From the UHGV virus genome UHGV-0337617: a stretch of DNA of 22,339 nt. The stretch is one strand, 5' to 3'. The stretch comes from a virus. Below the pieces are notes generated by a model. It worked only from the letters and a program-made list of their open reading frames with translations. It made no database searches and had not been told where the DNA came from. Position 1 is the first letter of the stretch. Each line of letters starts with the position of its first letter. Of this stretch, positions 11,163 to 20,725 are shown piece after piece. A program made the position numbers and the translations under genes.

Positions 11163-11384
11163 AAAAAAGCCGGGAGTAACCCGGCTCACTCAACATCAAT
11201 AACGGGGAGCTGTTTCGCATAAAACGGCTCCGAAACATCCAAGAACAGTTCTAAAGATATCAGCAGCTATATGATCATTTCAAGACCAAATATTGATTCT
11301 GCAATTTCGGGACGTTACACTGTCTCCGCACCTTATAAAGCGGGTGCCGGGGGTCGCAGCCCGGAATTGTCAACGGCGATATAT

Positions 11385-11404
11385 GACGCGCCAGCGTCTT
11401 TTTT
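11385..11404 (+). terminator. Putative intrinsic terminator inside the early-right operon
   Basis: GACGC-GCCA-GCGTC hairpin followed by TTTTTT. Confidence 0.4.
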
Positions 11405-11570
11405 ATCGTCCGCGCTCACGCACGCCAGAATTATGGTGGGCTGGGCAGGGGAGCCGAAAGGCTCGCCGGTCTCCGTTGACGCCGGTACTGCGAACCCTGT
11501 TCAGTCTGCCACCAGTGAGTTTCGCAGCTCCGGTGGTGGAAGTTTTCCACAGTCAACGGAGGCTGCCATC

Positions 11571-17418: not shown

Positions 17419-17799
17419 ATGCGTGATATTCAGATGGTTCTTGAACGCTGGGGGGCATGGGCTGCAAGTGGTAACACCGGGGTGGACTATTCTCCGATCG
17501 CTGCCGGATTCAAAGGACTTTTACCATCTGCCACTAAACCACGTCCGGCCTGCTGCGATGATGACGGACTTATCATTGAAAACTGTCTTGCTCGTCTGAA
17601 GCAGAAAAAACCTGAGGAGTATTCGCTTCTCATTGCTCATTATTTGTTGCGAATATCAAAAAGACAGATAGCCAGGACGAGAAAGAAAAGCGAAAAAGCA
17701 ATACGAATTGAGATGCAGATAGCCGAAGGGTTTATTGACGGATGTTTGTCTGTGCTGGGGGTAAGACTGGAGATGGACGACTGGCTGCTAAAAAAGTAA
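17419..17799 (+). CDS. Q: Late-gene antiterminator Q-like protein
   Basis: MRDIQMVLERWGAWAASGNTGVDYS...AGFKGLL... resembles the phage antitermination Q family; GGAGAAAG RBS; terminator about 70 bp downstream. Confidence 0.65.
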   Translation: MRDIQMVLERWGAWAASGNTGVDYSPIAAGFKGLLPSATKPRPACCDDDGLIIENCLARLKQKKPEEYSLLIAHYLLRISKRQIARTRKKSEKAIRIEMQIAEGFIDGCLSVLGVRLEMDDWLLKK

Positions 17800-17870
17800 A
17801 AAATGATTAGTGCGGTCCGCAAAAAGTATGTCAGTATGTTAAGAGTGGTTACTTCGCCACACAGCTTAAA

Positions 17871-17892
17871 CCCGCCGCGAGCGGGTTTTTTT
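17871..17892 (+). terminator. Intrinsic terminator downstream of Q (tR'-like)
   Basis: CCCGC-CGCGA-GCGGG hairpin followed by TTTTTTT. Confidence 0.6.
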
Positions 17893-18363: not shown

Positions 18364-19413
18364 ATGGCTAATACTGTAAAAATATCCAGTTGTGAGTTAA
18401 TCAACGCCGACTGCCTGGAATTTATCCGGTCGTTACCCGAAAATTCTGTTGACCTGATAGTCACGGACCCGCCGTACTTTAAAGTGAAGCCTGAGGGCTG
18501 GGATAACCAGTGGAAGGGCGACGATGATTACCTGAAGTGGCTGGACCAGTGTCTGGCGCAGTTCTGGCGGGTGCTGAAACCTGCCGGAAGTCTTTACCTG
18601 TTCTGTGGTCATCGCCTGGCATCTGATATCGAAATCATGATGCGTGAACGCTTCAGTGTGCTGAACCATATTATCTGGGCGAAGCCGTCCGGACGCTGGA
18701 ACGGATGCAACAAGGAAAGCCTGCGGGCGTATTTCCCCGCCACAGAGCGCATTCTGTTCGCGGAACATTATCAGGGGCCGTATCGTCCGAAAGATGCCGG
18801 GTATGAGGCGAAGGGCAGGGCACTGAAACAGCATGTGATGGCCCCGCTGATTGCTTACTTTCGTGATGCGCGCGCTGCCCTGGGGATAACGGCAAAACAG
18901 ATTGCAGATGCCACAGGAAAGAAAAACATGGTGCCGCACTGGTTCAGTGCCAGTCAGTGGCAGCTACCGAACGAAAGCGATTATCTGAAATTACAGTCGC
19001 TGTTTGCCCGGGTGGCAGAAGAGAAACATCAGCGCGGGGAACTGGAAAAGCCACACCACCAGCTGGTCAGCACATACAGTGAGCTGAACCGGCAGTATAT
19101 GGAACTGCTGAGTGAATATAAAAATTTGCGGCGGTATTTCGGTGTGACGGTGCAGGTGCCGTACACCGATGTGTGGACGTATAAACCGGTGCAGTACTAT
19201 CCAGGGAAACATCCGTGCGAAAAACCGGCAGAAATGCTGCAGCAGATAATCAGCGCAAGTAGTCGTCCTGGTGATCTGGTTGCGGATTTTTTCATGGGGT
19301 CGGGTTCAACGGTAAAAGCGGCGATGGCACTGGGGCGTCGTGCGATTGGTGTTGAGCTGGAGACCGGACGTTTTGAGCAGACAGTCAGGGAAGTTCAGGA
19401 TTTAATCGTTTGA
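18364..19413 (+). CDS. DNA methyltransferase (N6-adenine or N4-cytosine, beta class), apparently orphan
   Basis: DPPY motif near N-terminus (LIVTDPPYF) and FxGxG motif near C-terminus (DFFMGSGST); no adjacent restriction endonuclease ORF. Confidence 0.8.
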   Translation: MANTVKISSCELINADCLEFIRSLPENSVDLIVTDPPYFKVKPEGWDNQWKGDDDYLKWLDQCLAQFWRVLKPAGSLYLFCGHRLASDIEIMMRERFSVLNHIIWAKPSGRWNGCNKESLRAYFPATERILFAEHYQGPYRPKDAGYEAKGRALKQHVMAPLIAYFRDARAALGITAKQIADATGKKNMVPHWFSASQWQLPNESDYLKLQSLFARVAEEKHQRGELEKPHHQLVSTYSELNRQYMELLSEYKNLRRYFGVTVQVPYTDVWTYKPVQYYPGKHPCEKPAEMLQQIISASSRPGDLVADFFMGSGSTVKAAMALGRRAIGVELETGRFEQTVREVQDLIV

Positions 19414-19462
19414 AACGGATGAGATTGCAGTATTAATTCCGTAACGTTATTATTCCGCGCGC

Positions 19463-19538
19463 GGCCCTTTAGCTCAGTGGTGAGAGCGAGCGACTCATAA
19501 TCGCCAGGTCGCTGGTTCAAATCCAGCAAGGGCCACCA
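19463..19538 (+). tRNA. tRNA with CAT anticodon (Ile2/Met type; ileZ-like)
   Basis: Hand-folded cloverleaf: acceptor GGCCCTT/AAGGGCC, D-stem GCTC/GAGC, anticodon loop CTCATAA, T-arm GCTGG-TTCAAAT-CCAGC, 3' CCA. Confidence 0.8.
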
Positions 19539-19547
19539 TATCACATA

Positions 19548-19624
19548 CCGCCATTAGCTCATCGGGATAGAGCGCCAGCCTTCGAAGCTGGTTGCGCGGG
19601 GTTCGAGTCCTCGATGGCGGTCCA
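19548..19624 (+). tRNA. tRNA-Arg (anticodon TCG; argN-like)
   Basis: Acceptor CCGCCAT/ATGGCGG, anticodon stem CCAGC/GCTGG with loop CTTCGAA, T-arm CGGGG-TTCGAGT-CCTCG, 3' CCA. Confidence 0.8.
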
Positions 19625-19637
19625 TTATCTGTACCCT

Positions 19638-19714
19638 GCGTTGTTAGCTCAGCCGGACAGAGCAATTGCCTTCTAAGCAATCGGTCACTGGTTCGAATCC
19701 AGTACAACGCGCCA
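19638..19714 (+). tRNA. tRNA-Arg (anticodon TCT; argO-like)
   Basis: Acceptor GCGTTGT/ACAACGC, anticodon loop CTTCTAA, T-arm ACTGG-TTCGAAT-CCAGT, 3' CCA. Confidence 0.8.
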
Positions 19715-19728
19715 GACTTATTTTTCCC

Positions 19729-19753
19729 GGCTCGCTTTTGCGGGCCTTTTTTT
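19729..19753 (+). terminator. Putative intrinsic terminator after the tRNA cluster
   Basis: GGCTCGC-TTTT-GCGGGCC hairpin (one G-U pair) followed by TTTTTTT. Confidence 0.5.
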
Positions 19754-19952
19754 AAATGTCTCACAATTCAGACGGTTGACAGTTGTCTGTTTTGCGGGGA
19801 GTTTGTTAAAAGAAACTGGCATGGTGAATCCCCCTGTGCGGAGGGGCAATCAGCGAGTAGGTATATGGGATAATCGCGGATTCAGGTGCTGGTACTGAAT
19901 TCACCGGGAGGCACCCGGCACCATGCAGTTGACTGAAACCATGTATACTCTC

Positions 19953-19983
19953 AGGCCCCACGCACATGTGTTGGGGCCTTTTT
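19953..19983 (+). terminator. Putative intrinsic terminator upstream of the lysis cassette
   Basis: GGCCCCA / TGGGGCC perfect 7-bp stem with 11-nt loop, followed by TTTTT. Confidence 0.5.
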
Positions 19984-20154
19984 ACATGCAAAAAAAAGCC
20001 CGCATATGGATACGGGCGGCAAGGAACAAAAAACGTGAAGTGATCTATTCAGCCAGTGGATAATACCCTGACGTTACCATATTGCGCAATCGCGCATTCT
20101 TTCTTTTTCGCTCCCCTTATAACTACGCCATCCGTTCGCTGCGGAGGTGAGGCT

Positions 20155-20370
20155 ATGAAATCCATGGATAAAATTTCAACGGGCATTGCCTACGGCACCT
20201 CCGCAGGCAGTGCTGGCTACTGGTTTTTACAGTGGCTTGATCAGGTCAGTCCGTCACAGTGGGCTGCGATTGGTGTACTGGGGAGTCTGGTTCTGGGCTT
20301 CCTGACATATCTGACTAACCTGTATTTCAAAATCAGAGAGGACCGTCGTAAGGCTGCACGGGGAGAGTAA
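20155..20370 (+). CDS. S: Class II holin (phage 21 S-like pinholin), 71 aa with dual-start motif
   Basis: [71 protein letters not shown] matches phage 21 S as recalled; GGAGGTGA RBS; two TM segments. Confidence 0.8.
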
Positions 20371-20374
20371 TTCA

Positions 20375-20725
20375 ATGACTCAAAACTATGAACTGATTGT
20401 GAAAGGGATCCGCAATTTTGAGAATAAAGTTACGGTAACTTTAGCGTTACGGGACAAAAAACGCTTTGACGGTGAAATTTTTGACCTGGACATCTCGCTG
20501 GACCGTGTTGAAGGTGCCGCGCTGGGGTTTTATGAGGCAGCAGCCAGAAGGAGCATCAGACAGGTCTTCCTGGATGTTGCTGCCGGGTTATGTGAAGGGG
20601 ATGAGCAGCCGCCGGAAAAGCGCCCCGTAATTTTAGAGGCGCAGAATGTGTGGATAACCTACAAAGGAAAGCTACCAGGAAGAATTACTGGTTCTCTGAA
20701 GACTCCTCCGGAATCACAACCTTAA
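20375..20725 (+). CDS. Hypothetical protein (116 aa) inserted between holin and endolysin
   Basis: GGAGAG RBS; starts 5 nt after holin stop; no recognised family. Confidence 0.5.
   Translation: MTQNYELIVKGIRNFENKVTVTLALRDKKRFDGEIFDLDISLDRVEGAALGFYEAAARRSIRQVFLDVAAGLCEGDEQPPEKRPVILEAQNVWITYKGKLPGRITGSLKTPPESQP

What the first reader, a model, noticed from the sequence alone, without database searches (positions are those of the whole stretch)
19715..20154. About 440 bp without a convincing ORF between the tRNA cluster and the holin, rich in hairpins
In Stx-converting phages this position, after ileZ-argN-argO-like tRNAs and before S, carries the toxin genes. Here there is no such ORF but several strong stem-loops, two with T-runs, and a possible minus-strand terminator (A-run then GCCCG...CGGGC). 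It may be a regulatory leader for late transcription or an empty cargo site.
Basis: partly seen in the sequence, partly recalled or inferred. Interest (0 to 1): 0.45.

Follow-up and report, generated by a model that had tools for sequence, protein, structure and literature searches.

The report
Convergent prophage small-RNA gene pair
The "empty" 440 bp between the phage tRNA genes and the lysis genes holds two small regulatory RNA genes facing each other, an arrangement already described in Shiga-toxin phages; here it lacks the toxin and esterase genes that relatives carry beside it.

Summary
Window 19715-20154 has no credible ORF. It has four terminator-type hairpins, three on the + strand and one on the - strand.

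The gap is not empty and is not mainly a leader. Its parts are:
1. An intrinsic terminator closing the tRNA cluster (19729-19753).
2. A full-length member of Rfam family STnc100 (RF02076, 19790-19989, +, 140 bits against a threshold of 47). This family is also known as EcOnc27, EcOnc05, sRNA103 and the PasD relatives.
3. A ~65-nt RNA gene on the - strand (about 20054-19990), convergent with STnc100, with its own promoter and terminator. It is a diverged allele of the Hfq-bound EcOnc08/21/42 RNAs of E. coli O157 Sakai.
4. A short recombination joint followed by the holin leader.

This is the "sRNA dyad" that Tree et al. 2014 described between PR' and the lysis genes of lambdoid prophages. Relatives carry stxAB before the dyad, a nanS-p esterase after it, or both. 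This prophage has neither, so the "cargo slot" idea is half right.

The kind is known; the alleles are new; targets are unknown.

Two side findings. The STnc100 core has a covarying pseudoknot. In other Enterobacterales it sits upstream of kdgM-type porin genes.

The parts
19729..19753 (+). Intrinsic terminator right after tRNA-Arg(TCT): GGCTCGC-TTTT-GCGGGCC followed by T7. It closes the tRNA transcription unit.
   Evidence: 7 pairs, 6 G-C, then a T-run. 94-97% identical in Sakai Sp4 and CE10.
19783..19812 (+). Candidate STnc100 promoter: -35 TTGTCT (19783-19788), TG at 19804-19805, -10 TAAAAG (19807-19812). This is inferred and the true 5' end is unresolved.
   Evidence: The TTG of the -35 and the TTTGTTAAAA block are the best conserved upstream positions among 37 distinct E. 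coli-type alleles. It is not found by the strict sigma-70 scan. Published Northern sizes of 222-247 nt for homologues suggest some transcripts start further upstream, near 19762.
19790..19989 (+). STnc100 small RNA (Rfam RF02076), also known as the EcOnc05/EcOnc27/sRNA103 type and related to PasD. Helices: P1 19819-26 with 19919-26; P2 19831-35 with 19842-46; P4 19878-85 with 19895-902; P5 19904-08 with 19914-18; pseudoknot 19849-55 with 19887-93. The variable tail is 19927-19952 and the terminator is 19953-19983.
   Evidence: cmscan 140.2 bits (gathering score 47), E 2.5e-31, model positions 1-206. Fold -67.8 kcal/mol, z -2.59. Coordinates checked. Helix and pseudoknot covariation. Scaffold 98% conserved against 34% for the tail.
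19990..20054 (-). Convergent small RNA of about 65 nt, a diverged allele of EcOnc08/EcOnc21/EcOnc42. The 5' part is GGCUGAAUAGAUCACUUCACGUUUUUUGUUCCUUGCC. The terminator is GCCCGUAUCCAUAUGCGGGC (20017-19998) followed by U8 (19997-19990).
   Evidence: Terminator. Fold z -4.87, 0 of 200 shuffles as stable. blastn 72-75% identity to 866 E. coli genomes at the same position. The homologue in Sakai Sp4 coincides with the Hfq-CRAC peak EcOnc08. No AgvB or AsxR hit at E<=10.
20060..20089 (-). Promoter of the - strand RNA: -35 TTGCGC (20089-20084), 18-nt spacer, -10 TATTAT (20065-20060). The predicted start is G at about 20054.
   Evidence: 8 of 12 matches. The same GCGCnnTTGCGCA-18-TAwwAT arrangement precedes the EcOnc08-type, AgvB-type (L003) and AsxR (Sp5) RNAs. 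In AsxR and AgvB the published 5' ends lie 6 nt after the -10.
20096..20117 (.). Recombination joint. Homology to the dyad and esterase-leader module ends at about 20095, and homology to essD-type holin modules starts at about 20118-20124.
   Evidence: The exact junction is shared by only 97 of 5426 complete E. coli genomes.
20118..20154 (+). Holin leader with Shine-Dalgarno GGAGGTGAGG (20143-20152). It precedes the P21-type class II holin, which starts at 20155 with the MKSM dual-start motif.
   Evidence: (PF04971, E 8.6e-36).

Best explanation
The interval is the moron slot of a lambdoid late operon, and it holds a dyad of two independently transcribed, convergent small-RNA genes.

In the lysogen, inferred:
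- The + strand gene makes STnc100. This RNA has a highly conserved pseudoknotted scaffold followed by an allele-specific single-stranded tail and a Rho-independent terminator.
- The - strand gene makes a ~65-nt RNA with a U/G-rich single-stranded 5' part and its own terminator.
- The two 3' ends lie about 6 nt apart and do not overlap.
- By analogy with their homologues in EHEC and EPEC, both act in trans as Hfq-associated base-pairing RNAs on host or phage transcripts. The variable tail of STnc100 and the 5' part of the - strand RNA would serve as the pairing regions.

The three + strand terminators (after the tRNAs, after STnc100, and a weak one at 20083-20105) keep tRNA and sRNA transcription from reaching the holin, endolysin and Rz genes. 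Q-modified polymerase from PR' reads through them after induction.

Relative to Stx phages and Sp4-like prophages, this phage has no stxAB upstream of the dyad. It also has no nanS-p esterase block downstream, so the dyad is fused directly to an essD-type lysis cassette.

Shown: family membership of STnc100; homology, promoter and terminator of the - strand RNA; synteny and mosaic joints.
Inferred: expression in this strain, Hfq dependence, trans action, targets, and the insulating role of the terminators.
For: STnc100 identity and expression of homologues
- Rfam STnc100 at 140.2 bits over the full model.
- The same family sits at the same position in five relatives.
- The 5' 200 bp of the gap is present in 2859 of 5426 complete E. 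coli genomes, with up to 12 places per genome.
- Eleven copies are transcribed in EDL933 and one is confirmed by Northern blot (PMC5331693).
- STnc100 is equated with EcOnc27 and sRNA103 (PMC12711010 and PMC7873438).

The - strand RNA
- A conserved -35/-10 pair and a terminator appear in four alleles with four different stems.
- z -4.87.
- Its homologue coincides with the Hfq-CRAC peak EcOnc08 of Sakai Sp4, running from just after the -10 to the U-run.
- In phage 75/02 Stx the same slot and strand holds an AgvB-family RNA.

The dyad architecture
- It is described as general for at least 8 Sakai prophages (PMC4104026; PMC7873438).

Cargo and mosaic structure
- Synteny with and without stxAB and the esterase.
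- Mosaic joints.

Coding
- No protein-family signal in any ORF of the gap.
Against: - No expression data exist for this strain or for these alleles.
- Neither predicted promoter passes the strict sigma-70 consensus scan.
- The 5' end of STnc100 is ambiguous. Rfam starts the model at 19790. A conserved extended -10 predicts a start near 19819. Northern sizes of homologues imply about 19762.
- Northern blots for EcOnc08/21 gave about 271 nt, so a longer - strand transcript exists in Sakai. Its upstream part has no counterpart here, because the esterase leader is replaced.
- The - strand allele lacks 5 nt of the conserved GU-rich stretch and could be a decaying copy.
- No target is known for either RNA family. 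Only fimZ and espA effects on overexpression of sRNA103 are reported.
- Ribosome footprints were reported on some STnc100 copies.
Confidence: 0.8

Rival explanations
1. The interval acts mainly in cis as a regulatory leader of the late operon. The series of terminators and hairpins sets how much transcription from PR', the tRNA promoter or the sRNA promoters reaches the holin. The RNAs released are by-products.
For: - Three + strand terminator-like sites lie between the tRNAs and the holin start, 3 in all in 440 bp against 0.6 expected.
- A tR'-like terminator follows Q at 17868-17888.
- In about 20 other species the STnc100 domain lies directly upstream of a porin gene with no strong terminator, which looks like a 5' leader.
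Against: - The scaffold and the dyad are conserved whatever gene follows: esterase, three holin families or others.
- The - strand RNA cannot be a leader of + strand genes.
- Homologues accumulate as discrete Hfq-bound RNAs in uninduced EHEC and EPEC.
- Q-modified polymerase is terminator-resistant by established lambda biology.
Confidence: 0.12
2. The interval is an inert recombination scar. It is what remains after loss of stxAB and the esterase block, and its RNA genes are decaying.
For: - The exact junction at 20096-20117 occurs in only 97 of 5426 genomes.
- The - strand allele has a 5-nt deletion in the conserved GU-rich stretch.
- The STnc100 tail and terminator are only 34-45% like other alleles.
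Against: - The STnc100 scaffold is intact and scores 140 bits.
- Both terminators are perfect hairpins with long U-runs, and the - strand stem differs from the Sp4 allele yet still forms a perfect hairpin.
- Both promoter-like boxes are retained.
- Tail variability is a family property, not a sign of decay.
- An independently sequenced phage, PhiR49_2, carries the interval at 99.8% identity.
Confidence: 0.05
3. The gap encodes one or more small proteins. Candidates are the 61-aa - strand ORF that PGAP marks as a pseudogene, the 46-aa + strand ORF annotated in PhiR49_2, or a micro-ORF inside STnc100.
For: - These annotations exist.
- Ribosome footprints with RCV up to 3.2 were reported on some STnc100 copies in EDL933, with a putative SD 'tatgggata' that is present here at 19863-19871.
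Against: - No Pfam hit.
- The ORFs overlap helices whose substitutions are compensatory at the RNA level: 85 distinct P4 stems among 111 cores.
- The ATG after that SD is followed by a stop after two codons (sequence).
- PGAP itself flags its CDS as incomplete.
Confidence: 0.03

Closest known systems
STnc100 (Rfam RF02076), also EcOnc05/EcOnc27 (Tree et al. 2014) and sRNA103 (Gruber & Sperandio 2015); relative of PasD1/PasD2 (Pearl Mizrahi 2021; Zhu, Shabalina & Storz 2026 preprint)
   Same: - Full-length covariance-model match.
- Same helices and same terminator type.
- Same place in the late region, right after ileZ-argN-argO (as in Sp4) or after stxB (as in Sp5 and Sp15).
- The first 213 nt of the gap are 97-98% identical to the Sp4 and CE10 copies.
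   Different: - The tail and terminator (19927-19983) are a different allele from Sp4/Sp15. They are closer in style to the Sp5 terminator ...GGGGCCTTTTTACATG.
- No stx and no esterase lie next to it.
EcOnc08/EcOnc21/EcOnc42: Hfq-bound RNAs of Sakai Sp4 and Sp15, targets unknown
   Same: - Same slot and same strand, convergent with STnc100.
- Same promoter boxes at the same 18-nt spacing.
- Conserved GCUGAA...ACUUCACGUUUU...UUCCUUGCC body.
- Rho-independent terminator.
   Different: - Only 72-88% identical.
- 5-nt deletion in the GU-rich stretch, so UUGUUGUUUA becomes UUUG.
- Terminator stem replaced: GCCCGUAU/AUGCGGGC instead of GCCCGCG/CGCGGGC.
- The sequence upstream of the promoter is replaced by a holin leader, so the ~271-nt species seen in Sakai cannot be the same here.
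Anti-sRNAs AgvB (RF02702), AsxR (RF02703) and EcOnc03
   Same: - Position and orientation in the dyad.
- Length class: predicted ~65 nt against 51-60 nt.
- Homologous promoter module (GCGCnnTTGCGCA-18-TAwwAT).
- GCCCG...CGGGC terminator with a U-run.
   Different: - No covariance-model hit at E<=10.
- Lacks the defining conserved 3' ~42 nt (AGUAUCUCAUGCnnUUGCCCGAACCCAyUCGGGC).
- The 5' part is GU-rich, not the CA-rich GcvB-target mimic of AgvB.
Morons of lambdoid phages (Juhala et al. 2000) and the stx/nanS-p cargo site downstream of PR'
   Same: - Located between Q/PR'/tRNAs and the lysis cassette.
- Each unit has its own promoter and terminator.
- Bounded by mosaic joints.
   Different: The cargo here is RNA genes only. 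stxAB and nanS-p are absent.
PR'-tR' leader RNAs (lambda 6S RNA; StxS = EcOnc15)
   Same: Short terminated transcripts of the late region that are read through by Q-modified polymerase.
   Different: - Those start at PR' immediately after Q. In this window the corresponding terminator is at 17868-17888.
- The finding lies about 1.9 kb further downstream and has its own promoter-like boxes.

Membership tests
STnc100 (RF02076) | Covariance-model score at or above the curated gathering score (47 bits), over the whole model | tested here: met
   140.2 bits, E 2.5e-31, model positions 1-206, not truncated.
STnc100 (RF02076) | Closing helix enclosing the CCCCC/GGGG hairpin, a variable hairpin and the CCGGG-AGGCA-CCCGG hairpin, followed by a Rho-independent terminator | tested here: met
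   The MFE and centroid folds reproduce P1, P2, P4, P5 and the terminator. P4 covaries, with 85 distinct stems among 111 cores.
STnc100 (RF02076) | Expressed, Hfq-associated RNA | not testable with these tools
   Only homologues have data: EcOnc05/27 by Hfq-CRAC and Northern, and EDL933 RNA-seq and Northern.
EcOnc08/21/42 group | Sequence homology of the RNA body, independent of any profile that contains the window | tested here: met
   blastn gives 72-75% identity over window 19991-20102 to 866 genomes including EDL933. Block identities to Sakai Sp4 are 74-100%.
EcOnc08/21/42 group | On the - strand, convergent with STnc100, ending a few nt from its terminator | tested here: met
   U-run at 19997-19990 against the STnc100 T-run at 19979-19983. 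Same layout in Sp4, Sp15, CE10 and O111.
EcOnc08/21/42 group | Hfq binding in vivo | not testable with these tools
   The Hfq-CRAC peak EcOnc08 (1179938-1180010) maps onto the Sp4 homologue. There are no data for this allele.
AgvB/AsxR anti-sRNAs (RF02702, RF02703) | Covariance-model hit, with the conserved 3' ~42 nt AGUAUCUCAUGC..GCCCGAACCCAyUCGGGC | tested here: not met
   No hit to either family at E<=10 in 19400-20400. Read by eye, only the outer terminator bases are shared.
AgvB/AsxR anti-sRNAs (RF02702, RF02703) | Dyad position, orientation and promoter module | tested here: met
   In L003 an AgvB-family RNA occupies the same slot. The TTGCGC-18-TAwwAT promoter is shared.
AgvB/AsxR anti-sRNAs (RF02702, RF02703) | Sponges a core sRNA through its 5' variable region | not tested
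   No partner is known. Exploratory duplex predictions gave nothing above shuffles for this allele.
Stx-converting phage toxin locus | stxA and stxB between the tRNAs (or Q) and the dyad | tested here: not met
   Only 75 nt separate tRNA-Arg from the start of the Rfam STnc100 match, with no ORF. Compare L003, L004 and L006.

The most novel reading that the evidence does not exclude
The STnc100 scaffold may not be just the handle of a base-pairing sRNA. It may be an autonomous pseudoknotted RNA domain that binds a protein or small ligand and can act in cis.

What supports this reading:
- Its two halves are nearly invariant across many genera of Enterobacterales. The genome scan required an exact 21-mer, so this is partly by selection.
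- A previously unannotated pseudoknot covaries.
- In about 20 species it sits as a leader-like element upstream of a kdgM-type porin and pectate lyase gene pair, with no strong terminator between.
- In E. coli prophages it precedes a carbohydrate esterase.

On this reading the phage copies would be captured leaders that now end in a terminator.
Probability: 0.12. Interest if true: 0.7.

Novelty: new member of a known kind. Interest (0 to 1): 0.25.

Why it matters
**Annotation.** RefSeq marks this spot with a pseudo "hypothetical protein" antisense to a well-supported RNA, and one phage record annotates a 46-aa CDS. Neither RNA gene is annotated. About half of complete E. coli genomes carry this module, some of them up to 12 times.

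**Biology.** The locus shows that the sRNA dyad is a self-contained unit of lambdoid late regions. It persists without the toxin and esterase genes it is usually discussed with, and it is found in non-STEC strains. The reason for the dyad arrangement is still stated to be unclear (PMC7873438).

The allele pattern is a near-invariant scaffold or promoter with a swapped tail or body. That fits a cassette system for exchanging regulatory specificities.

The pseudoknot and the kdgM association give concrete handles for working out what the conserved scaffold does.

Tried and rejected
1. Coding. The five ORFs of 40-61 aa overlapping the gap have no Pfam hit at E<=1. Rejected as genes.
2. tRNA-like or tmRNA element. 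ARAGORN finds only the three tRNAs.
3. Membership of the - strand RNA in AgvB or AsxR. No Rfam hit at E<=10. Rejected, although AgvB does sit in this slot in phage 75/02 Stx.
4. Cis pairing of the - strand RNA with STnc100, the holin leader or the tRNAs, and of the STnc100 tail with the holin leader. Duplex energies are no better than shuffles, with 24-77% of shuffles as good.
5. A GcvB-like seed that could bind AgvB. The Sp4 allele pairs with the AgvB 5' end at -10.8 kcal/mol (2.7% of shuffles). The window allele does not (-5.9 kcal/mol, 38% of shuffles). Kept only as a remark about the Sp4 allele.
6. Alignment-based covariation for the - strand RNA. There are only four really distinct alleles, and MAFFT puts the terminators out of register. 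RNAalifold gave a weak result of -2.7 kcal/mol. The argument therefore rests on each allele forming its own perfect hairpin.
7. The strict sigma-70 scan finds no promoter in the gap. The promoters proposed are weaker matches supported by conservation only.
8. Looking for the Sp15 copy in Tree et al. Table S2 by coordinates found nothing. The Sp4 copy (EcOnc08) and a review table (EcOnc42 = EcOnc21 = EcOnc08) settled the point.
9. A preprint that mentions PasD and CsrA guidance could not be read.
10. A sialic-acid link between the esterase and the porin. The porin locus turned out to be kdgM plus a pectate lyase, not nanC.

Full report
**1. What is at the coordinates**

The window is the late region of a lambdoid prophage. 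In order it holds:
- A Q antiterminator gene at 17419-17799 with a tR'-like terminator at 17868-17888.
- A DNA methyltransferase gene at 18364-19413.
- Three tRNA genes at 19463-19714, with anticodons CAT (annotated Ile in RefSeq), TCG and TCT.
- The 440-bp gap.
- A P21-type class II holin at 20155-20370, a DUF1327/YdfR gene, lysozyme and Rz.

The gap is 100% identical to E. coli ZH063 and 99.8% identical to phage PhiR49_2 from ECOR13.

No ORF inside the gap exceeds 61 aa, and none has a Pfam match.

The terminator scan finds 3 sites in 440 bp against 0.6 +/- 0.7 in shuffles. A fourth, at 19953-19983, has a loop too long for the scan but is seen in the fold.

**2. The + strand RNA**

cmscan against Rfam places STnc100 (RF02076) at 19790-19989. 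The score is 140.2 bits against a gathering score of 47, E is 2.5e-31, and the match covers the full model.

The predicted fold has these elements (coordinates checked):
- A closing helix, 19819-26 with 19919-26.
- A CCCCU/AGGGG hairpin.
- An 8-bp hairpin, 19878-85 with 19895-902.
- A CCGGG-AGGCA-CCCGG hairpin stacked on the closing helix.
- A 26-nt tail and a terminator.

The same family is found at the equivalent place in all five relatives examined.

The first ~200 bp of the gap occur in 2859 of 5426 complete E. coli genomes, with up to 12 places per genome, and in 229 phage records.

The literature identifies this RNA as follows:
- EcOnc05 (Sp4) and EcOnc27 (Sp5) in O157 Sakai. It is Hfq-crosslinked, with Northern sizes of 222-247 nt (PMC4104026).
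- sRNA103 in EDL933. Overexpression raises fimZ and espA transcripts (PMC12711010 and PMC7873438).
- A relative of the EPEC RIL-seq sRNAs PasD1 and PasD2 (preprint 10.64898/2026.05.13.724894).
- Eleven copies are transcribed in EDL933 (PMC5331693).

No direct target is established.

Among 37 distinct E. coli-type alleles, conservation differs by segment:

| Segment | Fraction of alleles identical to the window |
|---|---|
| Scaffold halves | 98% |
| Tail | 34% |
| Terminator | 45% |

The window carries a minority tail allele. This pattern of an invariant scaffold plus a swapped tail is what one expects if the tail carries the pairing specificity. That is an inference.

The 5' end cannot be fixed from sequence. 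A conserved TTG...TGTTAAAA arrangement predicts a start at the first base of the closing helix, near 19819. Rfam begins the model at 19790. Published Northern sizes imply about 19762.

**3. The - strand RNA**

Upstream on that strand lie TTGCGC (20089-84), an 18-nt spacer and TATTAT (20065-60). The predicted 65-nt RNA folds far better than shuffles (z -4.87, 0 of 200).

blastn finds the exact sequence in 97 genomes. A 72-75% identical version occurs in 866 more, always just downstream of STnc100.

All keep the promoter boxes and the ACUUCACGUUUU / UUCCUUGCC body, and each has a different but perfect terminator stem.

In Sakai Sp4 the homologue coincides base for base with the Hfq-CRAC peak EcOnc08 (1179938-1180010). 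That peak runs from just after the -10 to the U-run. A review lists EcOnc42 (Sp15) = EcOnc21 = EcOnc08 as Northern- and CRAC-confirmed with unknown targets.

In phage 75/02 Stx the same slot holds an AgvB-family RNA. In Sp5 it holds AsxR. All share the promoter module GCGCnnTTGCGCA-18-TAwwAT. The mapped 5' ends of AsxR and AgvB lie 6 nt after the -10, which puts the start here at G20054.

The window RNA is not a member of the AgvB or AsxR families. There is no Rfam hit at E<=10, and the defining conserved 3' 42 nt are absent.

**4. The architecture is a known one**

Tree et al. [quoted passage not shown] A 2021 review calls these "dyads" and says the reason for the arrangement is unclear.

The interval studied here is one more dyad. 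Its two 3' ends are about 6 nt apart and do not overlap.

**5. Cargo comparison**

The layouts found are:

| Prophage or phage | Layout |
|---|---|
| This window | tRNAs - terminator - dyad - holin |
| Sakai Sp4, O111 11128 | tRNAs - terminator - dyad - esterase (- DUF1378 - DUF826 - holin in O111 11128) |
| CE10 | the same, but with two STnc100 copies |
| Stx2a_WGPS6 | tRNAs - stx2AB - STnc100 (no - strand partner found in the fetched locus) - esterase - ... - holin |
| 75/02 Stx, EDL933 Stx1 phage | Q - (ORF in 75/02 Stx) - stx1AB - dyad - esterase - ... - holin |

Pairwise alignment gives the mosaic joints:
- 19700-19931 is 97-98% identical to Sp4 and CE10.
- 19932-19990 is a different tail and terminator allele.
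- 19991-20095 is 74-100% identical, block by block, to the EcOnc08 module, which in relatives continues into the esterase leader.
- 20096-20117 is specific to this junction.
- From about 20118 the sequence belongs to essD-type holin modules present in about 1940 genomes.

So the "cargo site" idea is right for the position. The site is occupied by RNA genes rather than being empty.

**6. Mechanism proposed**

In the lysogen both RNAs are made from their own promoters. They end at their own terminators and act in trans with Hfq. This is inferred from homologues.

The + strand terminators also keep transcription out of the lysis genes until Q-modified polymerase arrives. This is inferred from lambda biology.

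Rival readings were considered and are less likely:
- A purely cis-acting leader. The dyad is conserved before unrelated downstream genes, and the - strand RNA cannot be a leader.
- An inert recombination scar. Structure, promoters and terminators are all intact.
- A small-protein gene. There is no family signal, and substitutions are compensatory at the RNA level.

**7. Beyond the window**

An exact 21-mer of the scaffold (ACCGGGAGGCACCCGGCACCA) is present in at least 120 genome contigs from many Enterobacterales genera. It is also in at least 120 IMG/VR contigs.

Among 111 distinct cores there are 85 different P4 stems.

The stretch 2-4 nt after P2 is complementary to the P4 loop, with many different sequence pairs: AUCAGC/GCUGGU, CUGGUG/CACCGG, GCCAGUC/GACUGGC, UUUGAUC/GAUCAAA and others. 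The mean matched run is 6.08 within a sequence, against 4.26 when loops are exchanged between sequences. This pseudoknot is absent from the Rfam consensus line.

In about 20 species the element lies 80-220 nt upstream of a KdgM-family porin gene, which is followed by a periplasmic pectate lyase gene. There is no strong terminator in between, and Rfam calls these copies STnc100 too. These points feed the "novel case" and do not change the verdict on the window.

**8. Verdict**

The element is a further instance, with new alleles, of the known prophage sRNA dyad: STnc100 plus an EcOnc08-type partner. Interest is modest.

Noticed in passing
window 11328-11404 and 11429-11516 (+): Rfam matches to isrK (58.7 bits) and C4 antisense RNA (78.8 bits) lie side by side. 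This is an IsrK/C4-type immunity or anti-Q RNA module like that of Gifsy-1 and P1/P7.
   Followed up: no
window 19849-19855 with 19887-19893: A covarying pseudoknot in the STnc100 scaffold. The segment just 3' of the CCCCC/GGGG hairpin pairs with the loop of the variable hairpin. Complementarity within a sequence is 6.08 nt, against 4.26 nt across sequences, over 109 distinct cores. It is not shown in the Rfam consensus structure.
   Followed up: partly
L015 786-1832, L046 1822-2763 and about 18 other genome loci: In Kosakonia, Klebsiella, Raoultella, Enterobacter and others, an STnc100 copy lies 80-220 nt upstream, on the same strand, of a KdgM-family porin gene followed by a periplasmic pectate lyase gene. 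There is no strong terminator between them, so it looks like a 5' leader.
   Followed up: partly
window 19809-19967 (-) and 19923-20063 (+): RefSeq/PGAP marks a pseudo 'hypothetical protein' antisense to STnc100 in ZH063. The PhiR49_2 record annotates a 46-aa CDS over the STnc100 tail. Both are probably spurious, and neither RNA is annotated in those two records.
   Followed up: partly
L007 3323-3513 and 3791-4000; L037 6323-7018: Tandem STnc100 copies. There are two in the E. coli CE10 prophage and three at about 250-nt spacing in Superficieibacter electus, each with a different variable middle and tail.
   Followed up: no
L250 2017-2102 (Sakai Sp4, - strand): A second Hfq-CRAC peak (EcOnc21) lies directly upstream of EcOnc08 on the same strand, and the reported Northern size is about 271 nt. 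In esterase-bearing prophages a longer - strand transcript, antisense to the esterase leader, seems to exist. It has no counterpart in the window.
   Followed up: no
window 20083-20096: The palindrome TGCGCAATCGCGCA overlaps the -35 of the - strand promoter and is followed by a T-rich run on the + strand. A similar GCGCAAnnGCGC palindrome is conserved in Sp4, Sp5 and 75/02 Stx. It could be a weak + strand terminator or a protein-binding site.
   Followed up: no
L022, L043, L050, L061, L084: The enterobacterial 21-mer, and in L061 the whole kdgM context, occurs in contigs labelled Prolixibacteraceae, Halomonas, Mucilaginibacter, Vagococcus and Geobacteraceae. Several are tiny or low-coverage. 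Contamination or misbinning is likely.
   Followed up: no
window 20155-20166: The holin begins MKSM, the dual-start motif of P21-type class II holins, which gives holin and antiholin from two start codons.
   Followed up: no
window about 20375 onward, compared with L001: The gap is identical to ZH063, but the window diverges from ZH063 elsewhere. In naive register there are 1353 mismatches over 8.6 kb, which implies an indel or a further mosaic change. The YdfR gene is 351 nt here against 345 nt in ZH063.
   Followed up: no
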